Shown: one piece after another, positions 6,947-61,571 of the stretch
Layout: the number at the start of each line of letters is the position of its first letter
Numbering within the stretch: position 1 is the stretch's first letter
IMG/VR virus record: IMGVR_UViG_3300027973_000056
Location: 2,621-66,620 of that record
DNA: 64,000 bases
Origin: a virus
Strand: one strand, 5' to 3'
Notes under the pieces: generated by a model
The model's database searches: none
What the model was told of the DNA's origin: nothing
Seen by the model: only the letters and a program-made list of their open reading frames with translations
Made by a program: the position numbers and the translations under genes

Positions 6947-8242
6947 ATGAAAGTAAATAAAGACATATTATCGATATATGAAGAAATTCTAACTAACAAT
7001 AAGAATATCTTAAGTGAATTAGAGTTGGTTCAACTCAATGACACAAATTATAGTAATTTAAAATACGATAACGACGGAACTCAATCTGATTCAGTTAATA
7101 AACCGTTATTAGATGACATTGACGCAGCAGCAAAAGCTGCAGGTCTTACTGCAACAGTAACTACCGCAAGTACAGGACATCCTGCAAACACTGTTACAGG
7201 AAACCCTAGTAGACATGGTCAACAAACTGCTGTTGATATTGCAATCTTAAATGGTATTGGTGCGGGAGGTGCTACTAATTCGGCTGACGGTAATTCAGAA
7301 TTTAGGTCTCTTGGAAACAAACTATCTAAAGCCTTGGTTTCTATGGGTTATACATTAAACACTGAGTCAGGTAATAGTAAATCCGTCCTATGGCAAACAA
7401 ATACAGGTGGTAACCACTTCAACCATTTACACGTATCAAATAACTCAGGAGAGTCAGGAACTGCACCCACAGTGGATTCAAGCGCAAGTGACAAGGCATA
7501 TTCAGACGCAACAAAAACTTCAACGACACCAAAAAGTTTAAATCCGTTTAATGCCTCAGGTGTTGAAAAAGATGATTTTTTAACAAACGTAGCAAAAGGA
7601 TTAACAGGTCAAAAGGAAAGTATAGAAGAACAAAGAAATTTTGGTAAAGATATAAGTAATAGATATGGTAGAATTATAATTCCAAAAGATTCTAATCCAA
7701 AAATTAAAAGCCCAATATCAGGGGTTATCTATAATAAAAGATATTCATCCAGTTGTGTAAATCAAATTACAATACTAAACACGGATAATCAAAAAATTTA
7801 CATTCAATTTTGTGGAATAAGTTCTCCTAAAGTTAGGGACGGACAATCTATTTCGGTTGGAGATACATTAGGTAATACTGATTCTGATGTTGAAGTAACA
7901 ATGTATGATAGCTCATGGGGAAGAATTCCTATCGGTTCTGAAGGAGTTGACAAATACACTGAAAAGAAAAAAGATAATAGAGAAAAAGTTAATAAAAAAG
8001 ACGATACAAGCAAATATTATACCGACCCATTAACCGCTATTGCTGCAGGTGTTCCTGGAAAAATTTTAGATAAAATATTTGGTGACAAATATGATGAAAA
8101 AACAGGAGAGAGGACCCAAAAAAGATGGGGAGGAGTTGCAGACAAAAAACCTGTTGACCCATGGTTATTAGACTTAATTAAAAGTCCATTTAAAAGTAAA
8201 AAAGTTAACGAGAATATTGAAAGAATTAAAAAGTTATTATAA
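6947..8242 (+). CDS. putative virion-associated cell-wall peptidase (M15-like Zn motif plus degenerate M23-like domain)
   Basis: SRHGQQTAVDI and HFNHLHVS motifs; IKSPISGVI...VRDGQSISVGDTLG. Confidence 0.55.
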   Translation: MKVNKDILSIYEEILTNNKNILSELELVQLNDTNYSNLKYDNDGTQSDSVNKPLLDDIDAAAKAAGLTATVTTASTGHPANTVTGNPSRHGQQTAVDIAILNGIGAGGATNSADGNSEFRSLGNKLSKALVSMGYTLNTESGNSKSVLWQTNTGGNHFNHLHVSNNSGESGTAPTVDSSASDKAYSDATKTSTTPKSLNPFNASGVEKDDFLTNVAKGLTGQKESIEEQRNFGKDISNRYGRIIIPKDSNPKIKSPISGVIYNKRYSSSCVNQITILNTDNQKIYIQFCGISSPKVRDGQSISVGDTLGNTDSDVEVTMYDSSWGRIPIGSEGVDKYTEKKKDNREKVNKKDDTSKYYTDPLTAIAAGVPGKILDKIFGDKYDEKTGERTQKRWGGVADKKPVDPWLLDLIKSPFKSKKVNENIERIKKLL

Positions 8243-8289
8243 TAAAAAACCCACCAATAGGTGGGTTTTATTTTTCCAATAGAATGTAA

Positions 8290-8472
8290 TTATTTTTTTT
8301 CTTCTACTGATGCAGGTGCTTCAGCCTTTACAGAATCTACAGCTACTGCCGCTGAATCTACTTTTACTGAATCTACCGCTACTACAGTTGAGTCAGAGTT
8401 AACTTCAGTTGATTTTCCGTTACCACAAGAGGCCAATGCTACGATTGCAAAAATTGCTAATACTTTTTTCAT
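8290..8472 (-). CDS. small lipoprotein
   Basis: Signal peptide with lipobox LASC; VDS repeats typical of Bacteroidota. Confidence 0.7.
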   Translation of the reverse strand: MKKVLAIFAIVALASCGNGKSTEVNSDSTVVAVDSVKVDSAAVAVDSVKAEAPASVEEKK

Positions 8473-8562
8473 GTTTTTTTTTCTTTTTTTGTTTATTAAT
8501 TAATAGACTATAAATATAAGAAGGTTAATGTATTATGTCAACTTTTCAAATATTTTTTTCTG

Positions 8563-8647
8563 CGGAAAGTGAGAGACTCGAACTCTCGCATCATTTGATT
8601 GATGTACGGTTTAGCAAACCGCTGCATTACCACTCTGCCAACTTTCC
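8563..8647 (-). tRNA. tRNA-Ser(GCT)
   Basis: Cloverleaf, anticodon loop TTGCTAA, long variable arm. Confidence 0.9.
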
Positions 8648-8653
8648 AATATT

Positions 8654-8989
8654 TTACAATAATTGTAAAAGATAATAAGACAATTTATATCCCGCAAATG
8701 CCCCTAAGGCTGATGGTATTGGAAACACAATCATTCGTCCCAAATCTGTTACATATTTGGGACGGTTAACTATCTTACCCATAAAAAAGTAATATGTTAG
8801 ATAACCTAATAATACCGCAATATCCGCTCTTGTTGCAATAAACACAACAATAGTCGCACCAATAAACCCAAAAGTAAAATTATCCCTAACTCCTTCCCAA
8901 ATTTCTGAAGTAGTGGCATCTTTATACTCTTTTACAATTTTCTTAAACTTGGCTCTATTGCCAGTTTTCTTTTTAATTTCAGTTTCCAT
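8654..8989 (-). CDS. hypothetical membrane protein
   Basis: ATG at 8989 (the longer ORF call overlaps tRNA-Ile); hydrophobic segments. Confidence 0.7.
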   Translation of the reverse strand: METEIKKKTGNRAKFKKIVKEYKDATTSEIWEGVRDNFTFGFIGATIVVFIATRADIAVLLGYLTYYFFMGKIVNRPKYVTDLGRMIVFPIPSALGAFAGYKLSYYLLQLL

Positions 8990-8991
8990 TG

Positions 8992-9065
8992 TTGGAATAG
9001 ATGGACTCGAACCATCGACATTCACCGTATCAGGATGACGCTCTAACCAACTGAGCTATATTCCA
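8992..9065 (-). tRNA. tRNA-Ile(GAT)
   Basis: Cloverleaf, loop CTGATAC; own TATCTTTG promoter near 9078-9085. Confidence 0.9.
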
Positions 9066-9158
9066 TTGTTGTTGGTACAAAGATACTAATTTTATTTTAT
9101 AAAAAAAATCCCCCTGACTTTTAATCAGAGGGATTCAATATTAAATTTAAAAAATATA

Positions 9159-9608
9159 CTACTTTAAAAATCTTAATTTGTATATTGTTGAATAAATTAA
9201 TTCTTGAACCGTATCTATTTGGTTTTGAATAAACGATTCTTTAACTCCTTTTCTTACTTTTTCAATCATGTAGTCTAATGATTTAAAATAATTAATTACT
9301 TGGTCAACACTTTTATAATCCTCAGTTTTTGCTGAGTCATAATTTTTAACAAGGTCGTACTTACCTTGGTAACTTTCGATAATACCGTCCACTAATTTGT
9401 CTATACCCTCATAATATCCTTGTAATGCTTTATGTTCTGAATATGATTTGGTTTGTAAATGAAAAATATGAACTTGAGTTTGAGAATGTAATAGTGTTGA
9501 TACCATATTCTTAAATCCTGAGTTACTTTTAGTTTCAGACTTATTTTCCTGCTCATTCAAATGCATCACTTTGAATAGTTGTTCTTTTGTTAATGTTAAT
9601 TTATCCAT
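9159..9608 (-). CDS. ferritin/Dps-like protein (DUF5856-like)
   Basis: HIFHLQTKSYSEHKAL..YY...D..IESYQG four-helix-bundle signature; N-terminal extension ending LNEQ. Confidence 0.7.
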   Translation of the reverse strand: MDKLTLTKEQLFKVMHLNEQENKSETKSNSGFKNMVSTLLHSQTQVHIFHLQTKSYSEHKALQGYYEGIDKLVDGIIESYQGKYDLVKNYDSAKTEDYKSVDQVINYFKSLDYMIEKVRKGVKESFIQNQIDTVQELIYSTIYKLRFLK

Positions 9609-9643
9609 ACAGATAAATAGTCAACATATTCAAAAAATATTTG

Positions 9644-9715
9644 GGTCAACGGACGGTATCGAACCGTCTTCCCGAGCTCCACAAACTCGTGCTTCACCTT
9701 AAAGCTTCAAAGACC
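9644..9715 (-). tRNA. tRNA-His(GTG)
   Basis: Loop TTGTGGA, encoded G-1 and C73; mismatched acceptor stem. Confidence 0.8.
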
Positions 9716-9720
9716 ATATG

Positions 9721-9794
9721 TTGCGAGAGGCAGATTTGAACTGCCCACCTCAGGGTTATGAATCCTGCGCTCTCACCAAATGAGCTACCTCGCA
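9721..9794 (-). tRNA. tRNA-Met(CAT), initiator-like
   Basis: TGCGAGG/TCTCGCA acceptor, loop TTCATAA, T-loop TTCAAAT. Confidence 0.85.
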
Positions 9795-9800
9795 GTTTAG

Positions 9801-9872
9801 AGGTTCTATTAGGATTCGAACCTAAACTCCAAAATCCGTAGTTTTGTGTGCTATCCGTTACACCATAAAACC
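9801..9872 (-). tRNA. tRNA-Arg(ACG)
   Basis: Cloverleaf, loop CTACGGA. Confidence 0.9.
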
Positions 9873-9950
9873 TTAGTCACGGTCATTGTCCCATTTTACA
9901 ACAAGCATCAAAATAACCCATAATAATAATAACCACATATTTTTTTCCAT
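9873..9950 (-). CDS. 25-aa hydrophobic micropeptide between tRNAs
   Basis: MEKNMWLLLLWVILMLVVKWDNDRD* fills the Gln-Arg spacer exactly. Confidence 0.35.
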   Translation of the reverse strand: MEKNMWLLLLWVILMLVVKWDNDRD

Positions 9951-9954
9951 TTTG

Positions 9955-10025
9955 TTATCCGACCTGGATTCGAACCAGAAATGACAGTACCAAAAACTGT
10001 AGTGTTACCGTTACACCATCGGACA
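9955..10025 (-). tRNA. tRNA-Gln(TTG)
   Basis: Cloverleaf, loop TTTTGGT. Confidence 0.9.
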
Positions 10026-10030
10026 ATATG

Positions 10031-10104
10031 TGGACCAGATAGGAATCGAACCTATTACCTTCACATTATGAGTGTGCCGCTCTAACCGAATGAGCTACAA
10101 GTCC
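10031..10104 (-). tRNA. tRNA(CAT), probably Ile2 (lysidine) or elongator Met
   Basis: GGACTTG acceptor, loop CTCATAA. Confidence 0.85.
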
Positions 10105-10197
10105 ATGAAGCTAAACATTGCTTTCAGGGTTGAAATGGCTCACAGATAAATCCGAATCACCACCTACTGATTTTACAGTATCTTAGTTTAACTTTTG

Positions 10198-10279
10198 TGG
10201 GAGTAGCTGGACTCGAACCAACGAACTCGAAAGAGGGAAGATTTACAGTCTTCTGCCATTGCCACTAGGCGATACTCCC
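10198..10279 (-). tRNA. tRNA-Tyr(GTA)
   Basis: Loop CTGTAAA, long variable arm. Confidence 0.9.
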
Positions 10280-10282
10280 AAA

Positions 10283-10413
10283 AATCAGGAAAGAGGAAGA
10301 TGGTTCAGTGGACATCCTCTTTTACGATTGGCATTACTAATGGTAGTTTAAACTCCGACGATGTCTTATTCCAACCACTACCAGGTATTTACATCATCAT
10401 TCCCCAATCAACC
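10283..10413 (-). ncRNA. candidate structured RNA in tRNA spacer
   Basis: Nested stems GATTGG/CCAATC and TGGTAGT/ACTACCA, then AAAGAGG/CCTCTTT. Confidence 0.45.
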
Positions 10414-10418
10414 TTTAG

Positions 10419-10491
10419 CACGCACGAAAGGGGTCGAACCTCTGACACATAGTTTTGGAGACTACTGCTCTACCATCTGAGCTACGCACGT
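10419..10491 (-). tRNA. tRNA-Trp(CCA)
   Basis: Cloverleaf, loop CTCCAAA. Confidence 0.9.
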
Positions 10492-10497
10492 GTTTAC

Positions 10498-10743
10498 TTA
10501 ATTAATAAATTCTTCTGTGTTTATGTTATGTTCGTCTAATATTTCGTATATCTTTCCAAACACTAACTCTAAAGTTTCGTACTTATCAACATCTTTACCT
10601 TCTAAAGACCACTCTAAAGACTTTTTAGTATTATGGGTAATTTCCCATAATGCCATAGCCATATCAAAAGACTTAACCGCTCTTTTATGAGCAATTACTT
10701 CATCTTGGTCATTTAAATCAAATTCTAATATTCCTTTTGCCAT
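10498..10743 (-). CDS. hypothetical protein
   Basis: 81-aa ORF between tRNAs. Confidence 0.7.
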   Translation of the reverse strand: MAKGILEFDLNDQDEVIAHKRAVKSFDMAMALWEITHNTKKSLEWSLEGKDVDKYETLELVFGKIYEILDEHNINTEEFIN

Positions 10744-10757
10744 AATATATATTTTTG

Positions 10758-10829
10758 AGGTCGATACAGGATTCGAACCTGTGTAAATAGTTTTGCAGAC
10801 TACCGCCTAATCCACTCGGCCAATCGACC
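10758..10829 (-). tRNA. tRNA-Cys(GCA)
   Basis: Cloverleaf, loop CTGCAAA, U73. Confidence 0.9.
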
Positions 10830-11015
10830 ATTTAACGTTTCTTTAATTTTATATTTTTTACATCTTTTTTTAGGTATCTCAACATAATATGAACCAAATA
10901 CAGAAATAAAAAGTCCAACATAGTTTTCTCCTTGTTCACTAACTTCTTGTAAAACGGTTCCTTCATATAAATGAGGAAAAATATCCGCGCTATCTTTTTT
11001 TACAACTACTTTCAT
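10800..11015 (-). CDS. hypothetical protein (3' end runs into tRNA-Cys)
   Basis: 71-aa ORF; last 10 codons lie within the tRNA. Confidence 0.55.
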   Translation of the reverse strand: MKVVVKKDSADIFPHLYEGTVLQEVSEQGENYVGLFISVFGSYYVEIPKKRCKKYKIKETLNGRLAEWIRR

Positions 11016-11027
11016 TTTAATTTATTT

Positions 11028-11246
11028 TTAATGTGTTCCGTTTGTTAATGAAATCCCATGCCTTACTCCTGTAATGAAATCTTCAATTTCTTCTTCGGTC
11101 ATATTGTTATATCTCTTACCGACAGTATGTCCAATCTCATTACCACAATCACTTAAATCTCCTTCGTATATTGTTACATCTGATTTTCCTTTCAAAGATA
11201 CAGAAATCCAAGATAAATCACTACTGTTAAATGTTCTTTTTTCCAT
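11028..11246 (-). CDS. hypothetical protein
   Basis: 72-aa ORF. Confidence 0.65.
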   Translation of the reverse strand: MEKRTFNSSDLSWISVSLKGKSDVTIYEGDLSDCGNEIGHTVGKRYNNMTEEEIEDFITGVRHGISLTNGTH

Positions 11247-11251
11247 ATTTT

Positions 11252-11875
11252 TTAATTTAATGAATTTGGGTAATACAATAATGTCGGGTTCTTTTTTTGG
11301 ATATCAACCTCGGGATATCTTTCCTTAAATTTCATCACATTAAAAGGTTGAGTTATAATATGGAACCCACTTCTTGTTTTAATAAAAGTCATTCCTTGTT
11401 CTTTTCCCGCCTCTTTCTGTAACTCGTTTATATATTCTCTCATTTTAATTTGACTTGGAGAATGGTTAAATCCATCAATGGATACATTATCAATATCAAT
11501 AATCCATCTTTTCTCTTGAGTCTTTATCTGTCCCACAACCGAGTCAAATAACCCCTTTTGGTTCTGAACTCCATTCTTAATTCTCTCAGCCAAACTTGCC
11601 AACATATCCAAAGACACATCTCTGTGATTTTGTTTCTGAACATGAATGTAAGCTCTTGCCTTGAACATCTCACATAATTGCATCACCTCATCATATCTCC
11701 TTTCCAAATGGTCAACTGATTCAATGCAATATGTTTTAATAGTTCTAACCGACTGATGGTTATCTCTTTCTCCTTCAGGTTGGTCTTTCTTACGTTTGAA
11801 AACATACAGCATATAGAAGTCACCCTTCTCCTCAAAGTTCAATAATGGTTTTATTATGTCTATATTGTTTATCAT
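11252..11875 (-). CDS. AEP (primase-polymerase)-fold-like protein
   Basis: hhDhD (WIIDID) and TRSGFH motifs; ATG at 11875 preferred. Confidence 0.5.
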   Translation of the reverse strand: MINNIDIIKPLLNFEEKGDFYMLYVFKRKKDQPEGERDNHQSVRTIKTYCIESVDHLERRYDEVMQLCEMFKARAYIHVQKQNHRDVSLDMLASLAERIKNGVQNQKGLFDSVVGQIKTQEKRWIIDIDNVSIDGFNHSPSQIKMREYINELQKEAGKEQGMTFIKTRSGFHIITQPFNVMKFKERYPEVDIQKKNPTLLYYPNSLN

Positions 11876-11889
11876 ATCATTTTTTTTTG

Positions 11890-11992
11890 TTGTTAAGGTG
11901 GGATTCGAACCCACAACGTAGTCTCGTAAAGAGAATCATCACCGTTTCGACTTACCGAGCCCTGTGCTCGTTTACATATCTACTACTTAACT
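11890..11992 (-). ncRNA. tRNA-like RNA with rearranged core
   Basis: GTTAAG/CTTAAC acceptor-like stem and perfect T-arm GTGGG-TTCGAAT-CCCAC; no canonical D or anticodon arm. Confidence 0.55.
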
Positions 11993-12330
11993 TCCTACCC
12001 CACTTCACCAGCTTAACGGACTGGCTGCCATATGGGAGTGGGGGTTTCCCGTTAATTCGGGACTCCGCGATGTTGCGGGAATCGAACCCACTCGATGAAC
12101 TACTTGTGATATGCACCAACCATTTGCTCCAATCCTAGTATTAAGGAGTGTTACCTACAAATCACCATCATTCAACCCTTTAACACCAAATTTGACTACT
12201 GACTGACTCCTTTCGAACTTTGAGGGTTTGTATCATTCAATATCAGTAGTCCAAGGCTGTAGGAGCTCATCTTTACACTTAGGCTCTTTGTCTTCTCATG
12301 TTGCAACATTTACGACCGTAGCGTCACCTT
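11993..12330 (-). ncRNA. candidate structured ncRNA(s)
   Basis: GC-rich, no credible ORF; T-arm motif 12075-12091; stems CCCCACT/AGTGGGG, GACTACTGA/TCAGTAGTC, CCTACA/TGTAGG. Confidence 0.5.
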
Positions 12331-12335
12331 GTTTG

Positions 12336-12408
12336 TGGTACGAGGTGGGTTCGAACCACCGACAACTTGTTCTTCAGACAAGCACTCTACCAACTGAGTT
12401 ATCGCACC
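12336..12408 (-). tRNA. tRNA-Phe(GAA)
   Basis: Cloverleaf, loop CTGAAGA. Confidence 0.9.
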
Positions 12409-12411
12409 AAG

Positions 12412-12484
12412 TTTAAAGTTAAAGTCGCCCACACTTGTTCGGGGCGGGACCTTTCGGTCACCTTCGACATCCCCTCAACTTTAA
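12412..12484 (-). ncRNA. candidate small structured RNA
   Basis: TTAAAGTTGA/TTAACTTTAA closing stem with GACC-GAAA-GGTC and CGCCC/GGGCG hairpins. Confidence 0.45.
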
Positions 12485-12696
12485 TTCACTTCAATATCTT
12501 CCAAAGGTACATCTTCTCCCTGAGTATGTTTATAAACTGTATTAAAAAACTCTCCTAACAATCTATAGTCCTCAGGAATCATATGACAAAAATCAAATGC
12601 AGGAATTGCACCATGAATTTGACCTTGTACTACCTTATCAAACTTATCATCTGGTTTGTACTCAAACACAGTATGTCCTCTAAAAATATATTTCAT
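12481..12696 (-). CDS. hypothetical protein
   Basis: 71-aa ORF. Confidence 0.6.
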   Translation of the reverse strand: MKYIFRGHTVFEYKPDDKFDKVVQGQIHGAIPAFDFCHMIPEDYRLLGEFFNTVYKHTQGEDVPLEDIEVN

Positions 12697-12697
12697 A

Positions 12698-12798
12698 ACT
12701 TCCGATTTTGTCTTGTTTTTACTTCCGAATTTGGACGGGTTTTACTTCCGACTTTGTCACTGCTCACATTTGAGGAAGTTTACTGCTCAAATTTGAGA
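12698..12798. repeat. degenerate tandem repeats, 23-bp period
   Basis: ACTTCCGAnTTTG at 12698, 12721, 12744; ACTGCTCAnATTTGAG at 12759, 12782. Confidence 0.75.
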
Positions 12799-12804
12799 TT
12801 TATG

Positions 12805-12877
12805 TAGTCCCTGTAGGAATCGAACCTACGACAACTTGCATGTAAGGCAAGTGCTCTTCCAACTGAGCTAAGAGACT
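12805..12877 (-). tRNA. tRNA-Val(TAC)
   Basis: Cloverleaf, loop CTTACAT. Confidence 0.9.
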
Positions 12878-12882
12878 AAATG

Positions 12883-12956
12883 TATCGCGTACGGGGCTCG
12901 AACCCGTAATCTTCATCGTGAAAGGATGACGACTTAACCAATTTGTCCAACGCGAC
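12883..12956 (-). tRNA. tRNA-Glu(TTC)
   Basis: Cloverleaf, loop CTTTCAC. Confidence 0.9.
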
Positions 12957-12966
12957 ATTTGTTTCA

Positions 12967-12998
12967 CAAAGATACAACCAATATTTCAAAGAGCCAAA
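12967..12998 (-). promoter_or_regulatory. Bacteroidota-type promoter directly upstream of tRNA-Glu
   Basis: TTTG (12998-12995)-N20-TATCTTTG (12974-12967); the spacer contains boxA-like GCTCTTTGAA. Confidence 0.6.
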
Positions 12999-13001
12999 AA
13001 C

Positions 13002-13036
13002 AAAAAACCCTGAACTTCATTTCTGTAGTTCAGGGT
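13002..13036 (-). terminator. attenuator terminator A
   Basis: ACCCTGAACT-N10-AGTTCAGGGT followed by T-tract; 5' arm can alternatively pair with 13097-13088. Confidence 0.8.
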
Positions 13037-13058
13037 ATATAAAAAATTTGGTTTATTT

Positions 13059-13169
13059 TTAGTTTAAAAAATTATTCAAAATTATATCCGAACTACATGA
13101 CTGCATACGCTCATACCAACAAGTTTCTTGTTGTTGACTAAAGACTGTATGTTTTATTGTAGTTCTCAT
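13059..13169 (-). CDS. putative attenuator leader peptide A (36 aa)
   Basis: MRTTIKHTVFSQQQETCWYERMQSCSSDIILNNFLN*; codons match the downstream tRNAs; contains the antiterminator segment. Confidence 0.75.
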   Translation of the reverse strand: MRTTIKHTVFSQQQETCWYERMQSCSSDIILNNFLN

Positions 13170-13187
13170 TGTTTCTAATATATAGTT

Positions 13188-13218
13188 CAAAGATATGAAA
13201 AAATCTTTGAGTGTCAAA
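13188..13218 (-). promoter_or_regulatory. Bacteroidota-type promoter for leader A
   Basis: TTTG (13218-13215)-N19-TATCTTTG (13195-13188), 18 nt before the leader ATG. Confidence 0.7.
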
Positions 13219-13243
13219 TATTTTTCCAAGTATTTATAAAAAG

Positions 13244-13663
13244 ATGAAGACATTAAGAGAAATTATTAAAGAAAATTTATTAGTTGAGAAAAGAATAACT
13301 CAAGTTAACTCATCTTTAGAAGTTTTATTTGTATTTGATGTGAATAGAACCAGTCATGCGTTCGATAGAGATACTAGAGATGATATTGAAGGATATAACA
13401 TAAGAGCGATTGAGAATGATGAAATCAGAGAAATTATCAGTAAGGTAAAAAAAGAAATCTCCGAAAAAATAGTAACAAGAGAAATTGTACCTGAAGAAGA
13501 TTTTGTCGTAAAATCTTTAAAGTGGGAATTGGCAATGGCGATAACTCCTGTTCATATGGGAGGAACCTATTGGCAACTAATCATCAAAACAGTATTTAGA
13601 GAATCCAATCATAACCCTTTTAGAGTTGGTAAAAATCAATTGGTTATTTATTCTGACATCTAA
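13244..13663 (+). CDS. hypothetical protein (late-type, LREIIKENLLVE N-terminus)
   Basis: ATG 13244 after TATTTAT 13231-13237. Confidence 0.7.
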   Translation: MKTLREIIKENLLVEKRITQVNSSLEVLFVFDVNRTSHAFDRDTRDDIEGYNIRAIENDEIREIISKVKKEISEKIVTREIVPEEDFVVKSLKWELAMAITPVHMGGTYWQLIIKTVFRESNHNPFRVGKNQLVIYSDI

Positions 13664-13664
13664 T

Positions 13665-13754
13665 AAAAAAGGGTAACACTAGTATCTGAATCGTTCCCGT
13701 GTTACCCAGTTTGTAATTGAGCTTGTGTATCTAAATCGTGCTCCTCAATCACAA
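13665..13754 (-). ncRNA. candidate sRNA with two hairpins carrying the same loop motif
   Basis: TATCTTTG promoter 13764-13757; ACGATTYAGATAC in both loops; ends GGGTAACAC/GTGTTACCC plus T6. Confidence 0.6.
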
Positions 13755-13816
13755 TACAAAGATACAAAAATATTTTGGTTTACAAAATCTATTGTATTTT
13801 TTTTTTATAAATATTG

Positions 13817-13897
13817 TACCCCAAGTCGGACTCGAACCGACACGACTTACGTCACAAGTTCCTAAAACTTGAGTGTCTACCATTCCACCATCGGGGT
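13817..13897 (-). tRNA. tRNA-Leu(TAG)
   Basis: Loop TTTAGGA, variable arm. Confidence 0.9.
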
Positions 13898-13902
13898 ATA
13901 CA

Positions 13903-13994
13903 TTATCATCGCTCCAGCCACATCGAGGAACACGCCGCCCCCGCGTTGTTTAAGTGTATGAATTGCGCCGTATCTCACTGAGTTACGATGATAA
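13903..13994 (-). ncRNA. candidate structured RNA between tRNA-Arg and tRNA-Leu
   Basis: Closing stem TTATCATCG/CGATGATAA, inner CTTCAGT/GCTGGAG, GC-rich core. Confidence 0.45.
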
Positions 13995-13997
13995 TTG

Positions 13998-14071
13998 TGA
14001 TTCGGAAAGGATTCGAACCTTTGACCCCAAACTTAGAAGGTTTGTGCTCTATCCAGCTGAGCTACCGAACC
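13998..14071 (-). tRNA. tRNA-Arg(TCT)
   Basis: Cloverleaf, loop CTTCTAA. Confidence 0.9.
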
Positions 14072-14279
14072 AAATTTCCCCACCTGAAATCCCAGTGAGT
14101 AGATATTCGCAGTTTTTCGTATTGAAAAACCCAACGCGTCTTACCGCTTAAAAAGTCAAACATACTCGGTGGCGTTGTTACGACCATTCTCCGAGACCCC
14201 CTCTTAAGGCCGTGGTAGGAAACAACCATAACATCTTTAAAGAACGTTACCAAACTTGATGAGTACTTCTAACTCATTG

Positions 14280-14361
14280 TATCAGAGGTGGGACTCGAAC
14301 CCACACGAGCAAAGCTCAACAGATTTTAAGTCTGTCTTGTATACCATTCCAACACTCTGAC
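14280..14361 (-). tRNA. tRNA-Leu(TAA)
   Basis: Loop CTTAAAA, variable arm; TATCTTTG promoter at 14378-14371. Confidence 0.9.
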
Positions 14362-14401
14362 ATTGTTTTACAAAGATAGTGAATATCTTTAATAAAGTCA
14401 T

Positions 14402-14434
14402 AAAAAAACCCCGAACTTTTTTAGTCGGGGTTTT
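14402..14434 (-). terminator. intrinsic terminator
   Basis: AAAACCCCGA/TCGGGGTTTT stem with T-tract. Confidence 0.7.
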
Positions 14435-14451
14435 AATTATAATAATTATTA

Positions 14452-15171
14452 TTAATCATTAAAACTTTCCTCGTAATAAGTATCGCTTGCGTTATCTTCT
14501 ATATTTTCTGTATGAACCAATTCGATTGTCATATCATGAAAATTGAATATAAATTGTCCATCAGAACCTTCATTAATTTCCCAACCACTATAGTTATCAC
14601 TAAGCTCTCTGTAACACCAATCTTCAATTGCAGCTGGAACTCCATCACCTGTTTCATTAAAACTACTTTCAAGATATCCCGAATCACCAGAACCATTATA
14701 TGTTACTATTAAAATCCCATCGTCAGGAATTGTAAGGTCTTCTAATACTCCACTTTCTTCCCATTCTTCAAATAGCTCCTTTCCTTGTTCATCCTCCCAA
14801 GTAACTGAACTACCTTCTCCTCTAGTATAAAAAGACCACCAACGAGTAAAACTAATTTTTTTAGAATCTACGTCAATGTCGTATTCAAGTCTTTGATAAT
14901 TCGTATCATCATTATCAGGTTCTCTAATTAAATTATTATCATCGCAATATTTCATAATTTTTTGAAGTATTGGAATCAATCCTGATGGAATATCTGCATT
15001 GTAGTTATTAGTGAAATGGGTTACATAATCCCAATCAACATTGTCATAATCAAATTCCTCTTGATTATCCATATCAATTTCAATGTTGCCGTCTTGCATT
15101 CCCATTGAACCTAAGTAATTGGATATTCTTCTTAAATATTGTTTTTCTTCTGGTGTTAAAATTCCTTTCAT
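14452..15171 (-). CDS. DUF6878-like protein
   Basis: YNGSGDSG...GWEINEGSDG motif. Confidence 0.6.
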   Translation of the reverse strand: MKGILTPEEKQYLRRISNYLGSMGMQDGNIEIDMDNQEEFDYDNVDWDYVTHFTNNYNADIPSGLIPILQKIMKYCDDNNLIREPDNDDTNYQRLEYDIDVDSKKISFTRWWSFYTRGEGSSVTWEDEQGKELFEEWEESGVLEDLTIPDDGILIVTYNGSGDSGYLESSFNETGDGVPAAIEDWCYRELSDNYSGWEINEGSDGQFIFNFHDMTIELVHTENIEDNASDTYYEESFND

Positions 15172-15182
15172 ACTTATAAATA

Positions 15183-15536
15183 TCAGTCGTTGAACTCTAG
15201 TTTAATTGTTTTTAACATCCATTGAGGACGTTGATTTGTTGATACGTTATTTATCCATTCTTTGGCAGATGGAATGTAGTTATTACAATCTTCTTTAACA
15301 TGTTGTTCTCCAACATATCTGGTGTAGACTGTAGTCCCGTCGCTATTCTTAAATTCGGCCCCAAATCTTTTTTCCATTTCAAAAATACCCTCACTATGAT
15401 GTCTAAACATTCTATGAAGTGAATCTCCAAACCATCCTTTAGTCTCATCTAACCATTCATGTAGATGAATATAGTCTTCAGGTTTTCCACCAAATTTTTT
15501 GGCGGATGATTTTGCATGTAAGTTAGGGTGTGCCAT
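15183..15536 (-). CDS. DUF6915-like protein
   Basis: MAHP..HAKSSAKKFGG..EDY..HEWLD..HR..RHH..G..EQHV.ED signature. Confidence 0.7.
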   Translation of the reverse strand: MAHPNLHAKSSAKKFGGKPEDYIHLHEWLDETKGWFGDSLHRMFRHHSEGIFEMEKRFGAEFKNSDGTTVYTRYVGEQHVKEDCNNYIPSAKEWINNVSTNQRPQWMLKTIKLEFND

Positions 15537-16101
15537 TTTTCCAAGAGTCTTTATTGTAGTTAAAATATACGAAATCTTCTTCTAAATAAGAATAAACATA
15601 ATCAGCCAAATCTTGGTCATAATATTCTTTATAATCATATCCTGATGAATAACCGTTGTTTAAAATGTTATCATACACAATATCAAAAAGTTCATGTGAA
15701 TCATCCATAAAAAATGGAAGTTTTAATATGTCTGAGTATAAATTCTCAACTCTAATTAATAAATCAGGAGTTTTGGTAATCCTTTTTTTTAAAAAAAATT
15801 CATAATCCAAAGTTTTGCCAGGAAATTTTATTTCTTCATGCAATTTTTGTCTAATCCAACTATTAAAGTCATTAGGAATTAAATTAGAGTGTATACAAAA
15901 AAGATGATATATTGAAATCATTCTGATATATGGATTTCTTGTATTTAAAACAAAAAAATATTCTTCTTTACCTTTTGGAATTTGCAAACCATGTAGTCCA
16001 ATAACGTCAAATTCAAAGTATGTTTGAATAGGCATGCATGACCTTGCTGCCGTTCTAATAGGTGTTGCCCACAATACTTTATATTTGTCAGAATAATTCA
16101 T
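15523..16101 (-). CDS. sulfotransferase-family (Sulfotransfer_2-like) protein
   Basis: P.RTA.RS and RNPY.RMIS PAPS-binding-like motifs; EDF..FNY tail. Confidence 0.6.
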   Translation of the reverse strand: MNYSDKYKVLWATPIRTAARSCMPIQTYFEFDVIGLHGLQIPKGKEEYFFVLNTRNPYIRMISIYHLFCIHSNLIPNDFNSWIRQKLHEEIKFPGKTLDYEFFLKKRITKTPDLLIRVENLYSDILKLPFFMDDSHELFDIVYDNILNNGYSSGYDYKEYYDQDLADYVYSYLEEDFVYFNYNKDSWKNGTP

Positions 16102-16334
16102 TATAAAATCTTTTCTTGTCTTCTTCTTGCCATTTCAGCGTCTTTGTACCATCTAATCCAAGTTAAAGACACATCAATTGGTGCTAACACCCAAGCCATA
16201 ACCATAACCATAATAGTATCTAATTCAGGAGACCCACCTGTTGGGTCATCACTATACCTTTTACTAAGGTTTTTAAATAACTGATAGAAACAATATATTA
16301 CACATACAAGGTAATATCCAATAAACATACTCAT
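16101..16334 (-). CDS. small membrane protein
   Basis: ATG 16334; two hydrophobic segments. Confidence 0.6.
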   Translation of the reverse strand: MSMFIGYYLVCVIYCFYQLFKNLSKRYSDDPTGGSPELDTIMVMVMAWVLAPIDVSLTWIRWYKDAEMARRRQEKIL

Positions 16335-16349
16335 AAATAAAAATTTTTG

Positions 16350-16422
16350 AGCCTCCTGTCGGACTCGAACCAACGACCACTTGTTTACAAAACAAGAGCT
16401 CTACCAACTGAGCTAAGGAGGC
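16350..16422 (-). tRNA. tRNA-Thr(TGT)
   Basis: Cloverleaf, loop TTTGTAA. Confidence 0.9.
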
Positions 16423-16425
16423 TTA

Positions 16426-16500
16426 TGGAGCAGATGAGAGGAATCGAACCTCCGTCTCCTACTTGGAAGGAAGGAGTAATGACCATTATACGACATCTGC
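16426..16500 (-). tRNA. tRNA-Gly(TCC)
   Basis: Loop CTTCCAA, encoded CCA. Confidence 0.9.
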
Positions 16501-16556
16501 GTGGAGTGCAGTGGGAGGTACCTTCCCTGTGGTTACTACACATTTTATCCACTTTG

Positions 16557-16629
16557 CGGTCCCGACGGGATTCGAACCCGTATCTCGCACCGTGACAGGG
16601 TGGAATTGTAACCATTCAACCACGGAACC
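16557..16629 (-). tRNA. tRNA-Asp(GTC)
   Basis: Cloverleaf, loop CTGTCAC. Confidence 0.9.
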
Positions 16630-16656
16630 GTGTATGGGGAGTTTCACCCCAAACTT

Positions 16657-17145
16657 TTACTCAACAAAGATATGATTATATTCCAATATTCTTCGTTTTA
16701 ATTTATTAACATATTGTGGGTCCTCGGCATAAACTTTACCGAGTAATGCAAAATATTGTTTTTTTGTCATATCATTACGTGATTTTAACATGTGGTCTTG
16801 CCACAATGAGTAATCATACACGCTATACCCCCAATCTTCGTATTTTGAGTAACCACTTTGGGTTTCCCCAATCTTTGCGGATTCTCTTTTACTTGGAACT
16901 TTCATTCCAAAAAGATTATTAGCTGATTTGAACAACTTTGATGTAAACTCTCCTGATTCTAATATAGCTTGTGCAAACACAATATCAGGAAATTTTATAC
17001 CATACTTAATTATCTGCTCATACAAACTTTCTTTTGAGATACTCTCTTGAGTATTTGATTCAATCTGTACTTGCTTCTCTTGTGCTTTGGTTGCCATTGT
17101 TCCTAACAATAACATCCCAGTCAATAAGAATGTTTTTAACTTCAT
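16657..17145 (-). CDS. GH73/FlgJ-like glucosaminidase with signal peptide
   Basis: AQAILESG, NNLFGMK and YAEDPQY motifs. Confidence 0.85.
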   Translation of the reverse strand: MKLKTFLLTGMLLLGTMATKAQEKQVQIESNTQESISKESLYEQIIKYGIKFPDIVFAQAILESGEFTSKLFKSANNLFGMKVPSKRESAKIGETQSGYSKYEDWGYSVYDYSLWQDHMLKSRNDMTKKQYFALLGKVYAEDPQYVNKLKRRILEYNHIFVE

Positions 17146-17225
17146 TTCTTTCTTTTTGTCTGTTTATGCTTCAGGATTGCTCCATCCACGATACTACAAC
17201 ATTGGAATTTTTCCACCTACCGCAG

Positions 17226-17297
17226 AGGCCCCTGTAGGATTTGAACCTACGACCAGTTGATTAACAGTCAACTGCTCTACCACTGAGCTAAAGGGCC
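17226..17297 (-). tRNA. tRNA-Asn(GTT)
   Basis: Cloverleaf, loop CTGTTAA. Confidence 0.9.
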
Positions 17298-17337
17298 TTA
17301 TAATAATAAATAAAATTTCCAATAAAGGAAACTTTTG

Positions 17338-17411
17338 TCGGGATGGCTGGATTCGAACCAACGGCCTCCACGTCCCAAACGTGGCGCGATACCTGACTAC
17401 GCTACATCCCG
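17338..17411 (-). tRNA. tRNA-Pro(TGG)
   Basis: C1-G72, loop TTTGGGA. Confidence 0.9.
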
Positions 17412-17416
17412 TAAAT

Positions 17417-17447
17417 AAAAAAACCCTGAAGGATAAGTTCAGGGTTT
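17417..17447 (-). terminator. attenuator terminator B
   Basis: AAACCCTGAA-CTTATCC-TTCAGGGTTT then T-tract ending 5 nt before tRNA-Pro; can alternatively pair with 17494-17486. Confidence 0.8.
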
Positions 17448-17468
17448 AAATAATTGGCTATAATATTG

Positions 17469-17567
17469 TTACCAACCACTCGCTTCTGAACTTACGCATA
17501 TAGTGCCCCCATCTCCATTAGGAGTTGTCGGCGTGTCTAAATTTGTATTTGTGTTCATAGTTTTCAT
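17469..17567 (-). CDS. putative attenuator leader peptide B (32 aa)
   Basis: MKTMNTNTNLDTPTTPNGDGGTICVSSEASGW*; 18 of the first 22 codons are T/N/D/P/G, the downstream tRNA set; TATTTAT at 17588-17582. Confidence 0.8.
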   Translation of the reverse strand: MKTMNTNTNLDTPTTPNGDGGTICVSSEASGW

Positions 17568-17622
17568 AGTACAATATTACAATAAATATATTCAAAATCA
17601 AATAAATCCCTATTTTAGTTTT

Positions 17623-18342
17623 TTAAGGTAATGTGTTACTACCTTTCAGGTAAAAGTCACCTACAACTTTTGGTCTTAATTCTGTACCTGAGTACGTACT
17701 ATAAACTCTGTATTCCCCAACAGGAATACGAGTTCCCGTGTAATTTAAAACATAATCAGATAATGTAGAATTAGTATTGAAAGGAGTTCTATATATCATA
17801 TTGGTATGCGCACTAGACATTCTTGATTGTCTCCAATTTGGGTTAGGTGTTGCATTCACAGGAATTAATACCATAATCCACACAAATTGATTATTAACTA
17901 AAGGACCATTAATTTTAACCGTTCCAAAATTATACACACCTGCCGAAGTTTGTGTAATATTTGATTGAATGACTGTAGGTAATGTTCCATTATACCAATA
18001 CGGCATATCAATATAATTTAACAAATCAGTATAATTTGTTGATTTGATTGGTGACCCAGTAAAAAAACCATAAAATGGAGTGTTTGTCGGGGTTTGTGTA
18101 CTACGAGGTCTTGTCTTTAAATAACTCACAATCATATTGAGTTTTGACTGAGGCTCAACAAAAATATAAACCTTTGGTCCAACTGATGAAACAGTCGGAG
18201 ATGTTGACATTGTTCTTAAGTCTTCTCCTTGAGTTGATTCAATTGAAGTTTGTTTAACTGGGTCATACACGTCGTCTTTTGTACAAGATACAAATAATAC
18301 CGATGTTGCGAAAATTGCAAGAAATAATTGTTTTAGTTTCAT
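17623..18342 (-). CDS. lipoprotein of unknown function
   Basis: Signal peptide with FVSC lipobox; TATCTTTG upstream. Confidence 0.75.
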   Translation of the reverse strand: MKLKQLFLAIFATSVLFVSCTKDDVYDPVKQTSIESTQGEDLRTMSTSPTVSSVGPKVYIFVEPQSKLNMIVSYLKTRPRSTQTPTNTPFYGFFTGSPIKSTNYTDLLNYIDMPYWYNGTLPTVIQSNITQTSAGVYNFGTVKINGPLVNNQFVWIMVLIPVNATPNPNWRQSRMSSAHTNMIYRTPFNTNSTLSDYVLNYTGTRIPVGEYRVYSTYSGTELRPKVVGDFYLKGSNTLP

Positions 18343-18411
18343 AGTTGTCTTTTTTTACAAAGATAATAAAATAATTTGATTTTGAAAATTATTTACAGAT
18401 ATTTATTCTTG

Positions 18412-18513
18412 ATGATAGACAATAATATTACGTGTCTTTTGGGAATTAACCAAAAATATGAGAACTCGGGAACGTTGAGATGTGGAAAACCTCGAACCAT
18501 AAACTATTGCTAA
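18412..18513 (+). CDS. 33-aa micropeptide or sRNA
   Basis: TATTTAT at 18400; MIDNNITCLLGINQKYENSGTLRCGKPRTINYC*; terminator 18531-18557. Confidence 0.35.
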   Translation: MIDNNITCLLGINQKYENSGTLRCGKPRTINYC

Positions 18514-61491: not shown

Positions 61492-61571
61492 TTTTTATAA
61501 AGATAAGAAAGATTTTAATGCCTTCCAAATCTTTTGATGAAAATTCCGAAAATAAATTTCGGGGACTTCCG

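What the first reader, a model, noticed from the sequence alone, without database searches (positions are those of the whole stretch)
12957..13218. Attenuator A: full 1:2 / 2:3 / 3:4 architecture with a Cys-Trp-Tyr run mirroring tRNA gene order
ORF 13169-13059 follows a consensus Bacteroidota promoter. Codons CAT..GTC TTT AGT CAA CAA CAA GAA..TGT TGG TAT GAG CGT ATG CAG cover the downstream tRNAs, and Val-Phe...Cys-Trp-Tyr occur in the same order as the genes. CGT and ATA match the ACG and Ile2 isoacceptors, and there is no Pro, Gly, Asn or Asp in the first 27 codons. Segment 1 GAACTACA (13165-13158) pairs with segment 2 TGTAGTTC(GG) (13097-13088). Segment 2 alternatively pairs with CTGAACTACA (13033-13024), and 3:4 is the terminator. 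CAACAAG-AAA-CTTGTTG could be a pause hairpin. Caveat: a second consensus promoter (12998-12967) lies after the terminator, so attenuation may boost the array rather than gate it.
Basis: partly seen in the sequence, partly recalled or inferred. Interest (0 to 1): 0.9.

Follow-up and report, generated by a model that had tools for sequence, protein, structure and literature searches.

The report
Leader-peptide switch before phage tRNA genes
A large phage places a tiny test gene, written in the codons of the tRNA genes that follow it, in front of a switchable transcription stop, so it probably makes more of those tRNAs when ribosomes run short of them.

Summary

The unit is conserved. I found 37 distinct copies on viral contigs and 25 more leader peptides on metagenome contigs. 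Three results support a ribosome-dependent attenuator.

- **Segment 2 is kept as RNA, not protein.** One subfamily reads it in another frame. It pairs with the terminator's 5' arm in nearly all groups, with compensatory changes. One group uses entirely different sequences for the same pairing.
- **The frame stays open.** It is open in 40 of 40 distinct leaders, while both other frames always carry stops.
- **Leader content tracks the tRNA genes behind it.** This holds for leader A, for a second leader before tRNA-Pro in this window, and for a Leu/Arg-rich leader before tRNA-Leu/Arg/Leu in relatives.

Weaker points:
- The 1:2 pairing is weak.
- The Cys-Trp-Tyr "gene order" match is not general.
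- In this window the stop codon lies unusually far from segment 2.
- A conserved second promoter means unit A can only boost expression, not gate it.

Nothing has been tested experimentally. This scan had already noted the sister unit on this genome (e1-6211265, e1-6211264). Five literature searches found no description of it.

The parts
13188..13218 (-). Promoter P1 (TTTG, 19 nt, TATCTTTG) driving the leader
   Evidence: Exact match to the Bacteroidota-type motif, which is 17 vs 3.65 expected in the window. Conserved upstream of the leader ORF in relatives.
13059..13169 (-). Leader ORF A, 36 codons including stop at 13061-13059 (MRTTIKHTVFSQQQETCWYERMQSCSSDIILNNFLN)
   Evidence: Sequence. The frame is open in 40 of 40 distinct leaders, while frames 2 and 3 carry at least 1 stop in 40 of 40. 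Codons 2-24: 15 are read by the 13 downstream tRNAs and 3 by the upstream set.
13158..13165 (-). Segment 1 (GAACTACA, codons 2-4), 5' strand of the long-range leader stem
   Evidence: 8 bp with segment 2 at -10.8 kcal/mol. The partner always lies at +1 to +14 of the ATG in groups A-F. 85% paired in 33 sequences with no compensatory change.
13117..13133 (-). Apical hairpin CAACAAG-AAA-CTTGTTG (encodes QQ..CW); possible pause hairpin
   Evidence: 99% of cells paired in 33 sequences, 7 with G.U, loop variable in sequence and length. A pausing role was not tested.
13088..13097 (-). Segment 2 (TGTAGTTCGG), the switch strand: pairs with segment 1 or with segment 3
   Evidence: Conserved as nucleotides even where it is read in another frame (subfamily B). 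Covaries with segment 3.
13024..13033 (-). Segment 3 (CTGAACTACA): terminator 5' arm plus the first loop bases, partner of segment 2 in the antiterminator
   Evidence: 10 bp, -13.9 kcal/mol, 0 of 300 shuffles reach it. Helix 92.2% paired, 3 of 10 pairs with changes on both sides, 0 of 500 shuffles reach the covariation score.
13002..13035 (-). Intrinsic terminator (9-bp stem CCCTGAACT/AGTTCAGGG, loop of 10, T6)
   Evidence: -14.9 kcal/mol. 97.6% paired in 33 sequences with one compensatory pair.
12967..12998 (-). Promoter P2 between the terminator and tRNA-Glu
   Evidence: Motif match. In relatives the -7 box is TAnnTTTG and only nn varies. An RNA-library contig ends at 12967 (weak).
8562..12956 (-). 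Regulated block: tRNA Glu, Val, Phe, Cys, Trp, Tyr, Met, Gln, Arg(ACG), Met, His, Ile, Ser(GCT), with interspersed small ORFs
   Evidence: ARAGORN and Rfam.
17469..17567 (-). Sister leader ORF B (MKTMNTNTNLDTPTTPNGDGGTICVSSEASGW), with segment 2 AAGTTCAG at 17493-17486
   Evidence: Codons 2-24: 14 are read by the Pro/Asn/Asp/Gly/Thr/Leu/Arg(TCT)/Leu set and 3 by the Glu block.
17417..17447 (-). Terminator of unit B with its T7 run. CTGAACTT (17442-17435) pairs 8 bp with segment 2 of leader B. tRNA-Pro starts at 17411, 5 nt after the T run, leaving no room for a promoter

Best explanation
Region 13218-12957 is a ribosome-dependent transcription attenuator placed ahead of a block of 13 phage tRNA genes.

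P1 starts a roughly 180-nt leader RNA that carries a 36-codon ORF. The ORF samples the codons read by the tRNAs encoded downstream.

**When those tRNAs are plentiful.** The ribosome runs to the end of the ORF. In most relatives it then sits on segment 2. In this window it stands between segments 2 and 3. Either way the terminator hairpin (3:4) forms and the P1 transcript ends at the T run.

**When any sampled tRNA is scarce.** The ribosome lags or stalls in codons 2 to about 20. That opens the leader stem (1:2 plus the inner helices) and leaves segment 2 free. Segment 2 pairs with the terminator's 5' arm as it emerges, the terminator cannot form, and P1 transcripts read into the tRNA genes.

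Unit A also has a conserved constitutive promoter P2 behind the terminator, so attenuation here adds to a basal level. The sister unit before tRNA-Pro has no such promoter and must gate its genes.

**Shown:** the sequence elements, their conservation and covariation, conservation of the frame, and the match between leader codons and downstream tRNA genes.

**Inferred:** translation of the ORF, stalling, and the direction of the response.
For: **1. The module is conserved.** P1, small ORF, terminator, P2 and tRNA occur together in 37 distinct viral-contig copies. A search keyed only on P2 found it in 18 of 27 new loci. A metagenome scan added 25 new leader peptides.

**2. Segment 2 is conserved as RNA.**
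- Subfamily B keeps the same nucleotides in a shifted frame.
- The best duplex between leader and terminator 5' arm always falls at the 3' end of the ORF, at -8.5 to -18.4 kcal/mol.
- The 2:3 helix is 92.2% paired over 308 cells. G-C, G.U and A-U alternate at column pair 101:162 (22, 3 and 6 sequences). Of 500 shuffles, 0 reach the covariation score, and slid controls give 28-43% pairing.
- Group H has an unrelated terminator, and the end of its ORF carries a copy of that terminator's 3' arm. Its own pairing scores -16.0 kcal/mol against -5.5 to -7.8 with the other groups' arms.

**3. The frame is open.** It is open in 40 of 40 distinct leaders. The other two frames average 3.1 stops and have at least one stop in 40 of 40. 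The length differences I read before segment 2 were 3 nt long.

**4. A ribosome at the stop codon blocks 2:3.** Masked folds give 2:3 pairing in 5 of 44 modules with a ribosome at the stop, 34 of 44 with a ribosome stalled upstream, and 29 of 44 with no ribosome.

**5. Leader content follows the tRNA genes.**
- In the window, leader A has 15 block-A and 3 block-B codons, and leader B has 3 and 14 (Fisher p = 1.5e-4).
- Across 28 leaders, an amino acid whose tRNA is in the block occurs in the leader in 260 of 284 cases, against 98 of 276 otherwise.
- Within the homologous leader family, matched pairs beat 20000 of 20000 permutations.
- In a third leader class, before tRNA-Leu(UAA), Arg(UCU) and Leu(UAG), those three tRNAs read 10-12 of 21 codons (TTA, AGA, CTA/CTG, and CTT with superwobble).

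**6. Unit B leaves no room for a promoter.** tRNA-Pro starts 5 nt after the T run, so the stop must be conditional if those tRNAs are to be made from this strand.

**7. Weak RNA hint.** A 217-nt contig from an RNA library, with 1 mismatch, spans 12946-13162. It bridges leader ORF, terminator, P2 and the start of tRNA-Glu.
Against: - No experiment exists. Translation, termination and read-through are all inferred.
- P2 can supply the tRNAs without any read-through.
- In this window the stop codon lies 26 nt past segment 2, so the classic masking by a terminating ribosome does not apply. 2:3 stays possible in the masked fold.
- 1:2 is weak: no compensatory changes, energy near shuffles in most groups and absent in group H by the duplex test, and not in the RNAalifold consensus.
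- Without a ribosome the minimum-energy fold already shows 2:3 in 29 of 44 modules. The default state is therefore unclear.
- Sensor codons are mostly single, not tandem runs, which should make the response to any one tRNA shallow.
- The leader-tRNA statistics are not corrected for shared ancestry.
- Thr, Lys, Ile, Asn and Pro occur in many leaders regardless of the block.
- One divergent member (L293) shows no significant 2:3 pairing.
- The RNA contig could derive from DNA in the library, and contigs cannot show ends.
Confidence: 0.72

Rival explanations
1. The unit is a ribosome-dependent attenuator, but it reports general translation capacity or transcription-translation coupling (ribosome availability, infection stage) rather than the supply of the particular tRNAs behind it. 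On this view the codon match is a by-product.
For: - Sensor codons are single and dispersed rather than tandem.
- Without a ribosome, 2:3 is already the minimum-energy state in 29 of 44 modules. Failure to translate for any reason would then give read-through.
- Several residues (T, K, I, N, P) are present regardless of the block.
Against: - Two leaders in one genome have nearly disjoint codon sets that match their own blocks.
- Leader content changes with tRNA gene content within one homologous family.
- The Leu/Arg leader matches at the isoacceptor level.
- A general sensor would not need any of this.
Confidence: 0.12
2. The ORF is an independent small gene (a small protein, or a small RNA with an incidental ORF) with its own promoter and a constitutive terminator. 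P2 is the only promoter of the tRNA block, and nothing is switched.
For: - P1, ORF and terminator form a complete unit, and P2 follows immediately.
- The peptide has conserved residues.
- The termination-state fold is the minimum-energy fold of the whole leader.
Against: - Segment 2 is conserved in a different frame in subfamily B.
- 2:3 complementarity is maintained by covariation, and by an unrelated sequence in group H.
- The peptide's C-terminus is not conserved.
- There is no PHROG or Pfam match.
- In unit B the tRNA follows the terminator with no promoter between them.
- The match between leader and tRNA block would remain unexplained.
Confidence: 0.08
3. The leader is an untranslated RNA switch. 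It senses a ligand, a protein or tRNAs directly (as T-box RNAs do), and the open frame is incidental.
For: - The leader has a strong predicted structure (z = -4.19).
- The conserved blocks show little synonymous variation.
Against: - The frame is open in 40 of 40 distinct leaders, although the other frames always carry stops.
- The length differences I read before segment 2 were 3 nt long.
- No Rfam family, T-box included, matches at E up to 1.
- A single RNA is unlikely to bind 12-13 different tRNAs by specifier pairing.
Confidence: 0.04

Closest known systems
Multivalent leader-peptide attenuators of amino-acid operons (thr leader with Thr and Ile codons; ilvGMEDA and ilvBN leaders with Ile, Leu and Val codons). 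This comparison is recalled textbook knowledge, not a call.
   Same: A short translated leader; a terminator; an antiterminator that shares a strand with the terminator; a stop codon placed so that a finishing ribosome covers the switch strand (in most relatives); more than one amino acid sensed.
   Different: - The regulated genes are tRNA genes, not biosynthetic enzymes.
- The leader samples up to 12-13 amino acids, mostly once each, instead of runs of one to three.
- It sits in a phage that uses Bacteroidota-type promoters.
- A second promoter follows the terminator in unit A.
- The 1:2 helix is weak.
The trp operon attenuator of E. coli (1:2, 2:3, 3:4 model). Recalled textbook knowledge.
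   Same: Three alternative pairings can be drawn, and a hairpin inside the leader could act as a pause signal.
   Different: - There are no tandem regulatory codons inside segment 1. Segment 1 lies at codons 2-4, next to the start codon.
- 1:2 lacks covariation support.
- The window's stop codon is 26 nt past segment 2.
T-box riboswitches. Recalled; Rfam models were searched.
   Same: The logic is similar: the state of the tRNA pool decides between terminator and antiterminator ahead of translation-apparatus genes.
   Different: - T-boxes bind one uncharged tRNA directly, without a ribosome.
- No T-box or other Rfam model matches here.
- This element has a conserved ORF and would read the pool through translation.
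The pheM leader of the pheST operon. Recalled, not checked in a paper.
   Same: A leader-peptide attenuator controls a gene of the translation apparatus according to the supply of one charged tRNA.
   Different: It controls a synthetase, senses only Phe, and is chromosomal. Here the tRNA genes themselves are controlled, which closes a direct feedback loop.

Membership tests
Ribosome-dependent (leader-peptide) transcription attenuators | A short ORF in the leader transcript, kept open by selection | tested here: met
   Open in 40 of 40 distinct leaders, while frames 2 and 3 have at least 1 stop in 40 of 40. The length differences I read before segment 2 were 3 nt long.
Ribosome-dependent (leader-peptide) transcription attenuators | The ORF is actually translated | not testable with these tools
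   No ribosome profiling or proteomic data could be reached. RNA runs were available only as contigs.
Ribosome-dependent (leader-peptide) transcription attenuators | An intrinsic terminator between the leader ORF and the regulated genes | tested here: met
   9-bp stem plus T6, -14.9 kcal/mol. 97.6% paired in 33 relatives.
Ribosome-dependent (leader-peptide) transcription attenuators | An antiterminator (2:3) that excludes the terminator, supported by covariation | tested here: met
   10 bp at -13.9 kcal/mol, 0 of 300 shuffles. 92.2% paired, 3 of 10 pairs with changes on both sides, 0 of 500 shuffles. Group H keeps the pairing with different sequence.
Ribosome-dependent (leader-peptide) transcription attenuators | An anti-antiterminator (1:2) that holds segment 2 when no ribosome stalls | tested here: inconclusive
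   8 bp in the window, with 2.6% of shuffles reaching it. Single-sequence folds of 7 representatives show a long-range stem. However, it is 85% paired with no compensatory change, is absent from the RNAalifold consensus, and 2:3 is the minimum-energy state without a ribosome in 29 of 44 modules.
Ribosome-dependent (leader-peptide) transcription attenuators | Regulatory codons cognate to what is regulated | tested here: met
   Window: 15/3 against 3/14 codons, Fisher p = 1.5e-4. Across 28 leaders, 260 of 284 against 98 of 276. Leu/Arg leader: 10-12 of 21 codons read by the three following tRNAs.
Ribosome-dependent (leader-peptide) transcription attenuators | Tandem runs of the regulatory codon | tested here: not met
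   Leader A has mostly single codons; the only run is three consecutive Gln codons, which lie in the hairpin arm. Leader B and the Leu/Arg leader do repeat codons: T x7, N x4, TTA x5, AGA x4.
Ribosome-dependent (leader-peptide) transcription attenuators | A stop codon placed so that a terminating ribosome covers segment 2 | tested here: not met
   In the window the stop lies 26 nt past segment 2, and 2:3 remains possible. The feature is met in 39 of 44 modules of relatives.
Ribosome-dependent (leader-peptide) transcription attenuators | Regulated genes depend on read-through, with no promoter behind the terminator | tested here: not met
   A conserved P2 lies at 12998-12967. The feature is met in the sister unit B, where tRNA-Pro starts 5 nt after the T run.
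Ribosome-dependent (leader-peptide) transcription attenuators | Read-through rises when the sensed tRNA or amino acid is scarce | not testable with these tools
   This needs an infection or reporter experiment.
T-box riboswitch and other curated RNA leaders (Rfam 15) | A match to the family covariance model | tested here: not met
   No match at E up to 1 on 12957-13218. Only tRNAs and chance-level hits elsewhere in 8000-18500.

The most novel reading that the evidence does not exclude
Large phages divide their tRNA arrays into regulons. Each regulon is headed by a 'checklist' leader peptide that measures, codon by codon and down to the isoacceptor, the supply of exactly the tRNA species encoded behind it, and raises their transcription when any of them runs low.

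This would be a self-correcting tRNA supply circuit. It could also answer host defences that cut or deplete tRNAs. The same window carries an Rnl1-type RNA ligase, a kinase and RNA-repair phosphatase domains.
Probability: 0.55. Interest if true: 0.92.

Novelty: new variant of a known kind. Interest (0 to 1): 0.85.

Why it matters
Leader-peptide attenuation is textbook biology for amino-acid operons. I found no description of it controlling tRNA genes, nor of a leader that samples a dozen amino acids matched to the genes behind it. That rests on five full-text searches, for which I saw only listings and the starts of abstracts.

If real, it would matter in three ways.
- Phage tRNA arrays would be regulated, feedback-controlled units rather than passive codon-usage supplements.
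- There would be a direct, testable handle on why phages carry tRNAs: codon adaptation or replacement of tRNAs destroyed by host defences.
- It would supply natural sensors of individual tRNA pools for Bacteroidota-type hosts.

The co-variation of a peptide's composition with neighbouring tRNA gene content is also a new kind of comparative evidence. It could be used to find such leaders elsewhere.

Tried and rejected
- **Known RNA family.** Rfam at E up to 1 gave nothing on the leader. It also gave nothing on the roughly 100-nt insert that some relatives carry between P2 and tRNA-Glu.
- **Known protein family.** PHROGs had no match for the 36-aa ORF or for the divergent neighbour gene. Pfam had none for the neighbour.
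- **Close relatives among deposited phages.** Only tRNA-sized matches were found, and no record covered 80% of 12000-14500.
- **RNAalifold on 33 leaders.** It returned only the apical hairpin and the terminator. The 1:2 and 2:3 helices had to be specified by hand.
- **Gene-order mirroring.** Rejected as a general feature.
- **The hairpin-plus-core pattern.** Of the 79 new loci returned, it added 1 new member.
- **Group G (L293).** No significant 2:3 duplex: -7.1 kcal/mol, with 68% of shuffles as good.
- **RNA runs.** Three metatranscriptome runs hold only small shares (0.17, 0.12, 0.05) and are kept as contigs. Laid on 12300-13700, they cannot show starts, ends or strand. Stretches without cover mean nothing, and most X3 pieces come from relatives under 95% identity. 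I use only the statement that one contig bridges the terminator.
- **Not used.** No structure prediction, complex prediction or protein-representative search was run, because the question concerns RNA and codons.
- **Supplementary files.** Those of the listed papers were not opened. They could hold transcript maps of related phages.
Full report
**What the window is.** The window lies in a 66.6-kb virus record rated 22% complete. It carries phage-type genes and an RNA-repair set: RNA_lig_T4_1, AAA_33 kinase, HAD_SAK_2 and cREC_REC. There are 21 tRNA genes on the minus strand between 8562 and 17411. The Bacteroidota-type promoter motif TTTG-N18-21-TAnnTTTG occurs 17 times against 3.65 +/- 2.03 expected.

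**The observation.** On the minus strand, P1 (13218-13188) is followed by an ATG at 13169 and a 36-codon ORF ending at 13059. A terminator follows (stem 13035-13027 with 13016-13008, T6 at 13007-13002; -14.9 kcal/mol). Then come P2 (12998-12967) and tRNA-Glu at 12956.

Segments 1, 2 and 3 lie where stated. Segment 2 pairs with segment 3 as an unbroken 10-bp helix with one G.U. It scores -13.9 kcal/mol, and 0 of 300 dinucleotide shuffles of the leader reach that. Segment 1 pairs with segment 2 over 8 bp at -10.8 kcal/mol; 2.6% of 500 shuffles reach it. The whole 183-nt leader folds at -40.4 kcal/mol with z = -4.19. No Rfam family matches it.

**Relatives.** I collected relatives by five routes.
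- The neighbouring protein gave 8 loci.
- A degenerate pattern for six central codons gave 44 loci, 27 with the ORF and 15 distinct sequences counting the window.
- A pattern on segments 1 and 2 gave 9 further members, but this route is biased towards those segments.
- A pattern on the centre of the ORF gave 10 further members.
- A pattern on P2 alone says nothing about the leader. It gave 27 new loci, of which 18 carry the whole module and 9 are unrelated.

Together these make 37 distinct modules. Among these were 45 terminators within 140 nt upstream of a tRNA and preceded by a small ORF, and 25 leader peptides not seen before.

**Is segment 2 RNA or protein?** In subfamily B a 1-nt deletion shifts the frame. 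The same nucleotides are then read as ..CCT GTA GTT CGG ATG.. instead of ..TGT AGT TCG GAT... The peptide after that point is not conserved, and the stop falls at different places. Segment 2 is therefore kept as nucleotides.

**The antiterminator.**
- In nearly every group the best duplex between the leader and the terminator's 5' arm (plus 3 nt) falls at the 3' end of the ORF, at nt 61-86. Energies run from -8.5 to -18.4 kcal/mol, and for most groups 0 to 9% of shuffles do as well.
- On a MAFFT alignment of 33 distinct leaders, the 2:3 helix is paired in 92.2% of 308 cells. Three of its 10 pairs change on both sides. At columns 101:162 there are 22 G-C, 6 A-U and 3 G.U. Of 500 column shuffles, 0 reach the covariation score, and sliding the partner by 1-3 columns drops pairing to 28-43%.
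- The history is readable. The terminator arm changed C to U. The window's lineage then repaired the terminator (G to A in the 3' arm), while subfamily C repaired the antiterminator (G to A in segment 2).
- Group H (L281, L285, L301) has an unrelated terminator, and the last codons of its ORF contain a copy of that terminator's 3' arm. Its leader pairs with its own arm at -16.0 kcal/mol and with other groups' arms at -5.5 to -7.8.
- One divergent member (L293) shows no significant pairing.

**The 1:2 helix.**
- Its partner always lies at +1 to +14 of the ATG in groups A-F.
- Single-sequence folds of 7 representatives all give a long-range stem that closes the ORF around the apical hairpin.
- However, the helix is 85% paired without any compensatory change.
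- Its energy is near shuffles in most groups.
- RNAalifold does not return it.
- I count it as inconclusive.

The apical hairpin (which encodes QQ..CW) is 99% paired, and its loops vary in length by multiples of three.

**Is the ORF meaningful?** Across 40 distinct leader ORFs, the two other frames over the same span carry a mean of 3.1 stops. Each has at least one stop in 40 of 40. An open frame of this length is therefore not the default in this A+T-rich DNA. Yet all 18 modules found through P2 alone had one. The length differences I read before segment 2 were 3 nt long.

**Geometry.** I folded each transcript up to the terminator's 5' arm plus 4 nt, under three conditions. At least 5 arm bases pair with segment 2 in:
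- 29 of 44 modules with no ribosome;
- 34 of 44 with a ribosome stalled about seven codons before segment 2;
- 5 of 44 with a ribosome at the stop codon.

The window's leader A is one of the five exceptions. A 1-nt difference has pushed its stop 26 nt past segment 2.

**Leader content and tRNA genes.** The window holds a second unit, which I found before consulting earlier notes. It consists of an ORF at 17567-17469 and a terminator at 17447-17421. Its segment 2 (17493-17486) pairs 8 bp with the terminator arm. tRNA-Pro starts 5 nt after the T run, so no promoter fits in between.

Under strict wobble rules:
- Codons 2-24 of leader A are read by the Glu-to-Ser block in 15 cases and by the Pro-to-Leu block in 3.
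- For leader B the counts are 3 and 14 (Fisher p = 1.5e-4; 4.8e-5 if U34 reads four-fold boxes).

In relatives, the amino acids of the downstream tRNAs are almost always all present in the leader. Examples are 12 of 12 in the window, and 13 of 13 and 7 of 7 for the two leaders of L281, whose array is divided differently.

Over 28 distinct leaders with a bounded block or at least 3.5 kb of downstream sequence:
- An amino acid with a tRNA in the block is in the pre-segment-2 peptide in 260 of 284 cases, against 98 of 276 otherwise.
- The per-residue tables (block+/leader+, block+/leader-, block-/leader+, block-/leader-) are 13/0/0/15 for Gly, 11/0/2/15 for Val and 15/0/1/12 for Phe.
- One non-family ORF picked up in L005 was dropped before this count.

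Within the homologous QQ..CW family alone (15 lineages), matched leader-block pairs reach 98.5% coverage against 86.4% under permutation, and 0 of 20000 permutations do as well. These tests do not correct for shared ancestry, so the p-values are nominal.

A third leader class exists in relatives before tRNA-Leu(UAA), Arg(UCU) and Leu(UAG). Those three tRNAs read 10-12 of its 21 codons: TTA x4-5, AGA x4, CTA or CTG, and CTT if U34 reads four-fold boxes. Its segment 2 lies right after the stop codon. The window has lost this leader; 14362-14452 keeps only the terminator and promoter.

**What did not hold.** The C-W-Y run is not conserved: CCY, CWK, CWE, CWF and CWN all occur. Colinearity with gene order is not significant in the window (8 of 13; 15% of 2000 shuffles) or in most groups.

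**Expression.** Three RNA-library runs hold small parts of the region as contigs.
- One 217-nt contig with a single mismatch covers 12946-13162. It bridges the leader ORF, the terminator, P2 and the first 11 nt of tRNA-Glu.
- Another covers 12734-12967.

Contigs cannot show ends or strand, and DNA carry-over cannot be excluded. This is only a weak hint that read-through molecules exist.

**Reading.** The best explanation is a ribosome-dependent attenuator that reads the supply of the tRNAs encoded behind it. Unit A adds P1 read-through to the basal output of P2. Unit B gates its genes. The closest known systems are the multivalent thr and ilv leaders.

The differences are:
- the target is tRNA genes;
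- the sampling is broad, up to 13 amino acids and mostly single codons;
- the setting is a phage;
- a promoter follows the terminator in unit A.

Five literature searches gave no description of such control of tRNA genes (listings and abstract starts only). I also read one passage of PMC3082878, which proved irrelevant.

This scan had already noted the sister unit and the pair on this genome (e1-6211265, e1-6211264).

Noticed in passing
window 13660-13786 (-): A promoter motif match (13786-13757) is followed by a roughly 90-nt unit with a 10-bp stem and a strong terminator. It lies convergent with the end of the + strand gene 13247-13663. It looks like a small RNA. No Rfam match.
   Followed up: no
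window 14362-14452 (-); L013, L015, L019, L022, L035, L039, L044, L053, L311, L383: Relatives carry a third, Leu/Arg-rich leader ORF before tRNA-Leu(UAA)-Arg(UCU)-Leu(UAG). The window keeps only that unit's terminator and promoter.
   Followed up: partly
L015, L023, L025 (about 100 nt between P2 and tRNA-Glu): Some relatives have a G+C-richer insert of about 100 nt between the second promoter and tRNA-Glu. It has no Rfam match at E up to 0.1.
   Followed up: partly
window 12975-12994 (-) and the same place in relatives: The 18-20 nt spacer of P2 (..TCTTTGAAATATTGG..) is almost invariant across groups that differ elsewhere, which is unusual for a promoter spacer. Most members were found with patterns that do not include it. 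If it acts in RNA, only P1 read-through transcripts would carry it. Not tested.
   Followed up: no
A1 columns 125-155; L229, L248, L280, L282, L283, L298: A conserved stretch (..TTCCTGAAGAG..TTATATATAC..) lies between the leader's stop codon and the terminator in groups C to F. Its role is unknown.
   Followed up: no
window 4920-5534, 34925-35338, 35808-36896, 56326-56730 (+): An RNA-repair set: HAD_SAK_2, AAA_33 kinase, RNA_lig_T4_1 ligase and a cyclic-phosphate receiver domain. It fits a phage that meets tRNA-cutting host defences.
   Followed up: partly
window 61571-61717 (-): ARAGORN calls a 91-nt 'tRNA-SeC' here. A promoter motif precedes it, and this region is 85% identical over 33 nt to the P2 region.
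   Followed up: no
window 12409-12803 (-): The 395 nt between tRNA-Val and tRNA-Phe hold short direct repeats (..tcggaagtaaaa..) and no long ORF. One RNA-library contig of a relative skips 12398-12803.
   Followed up: no
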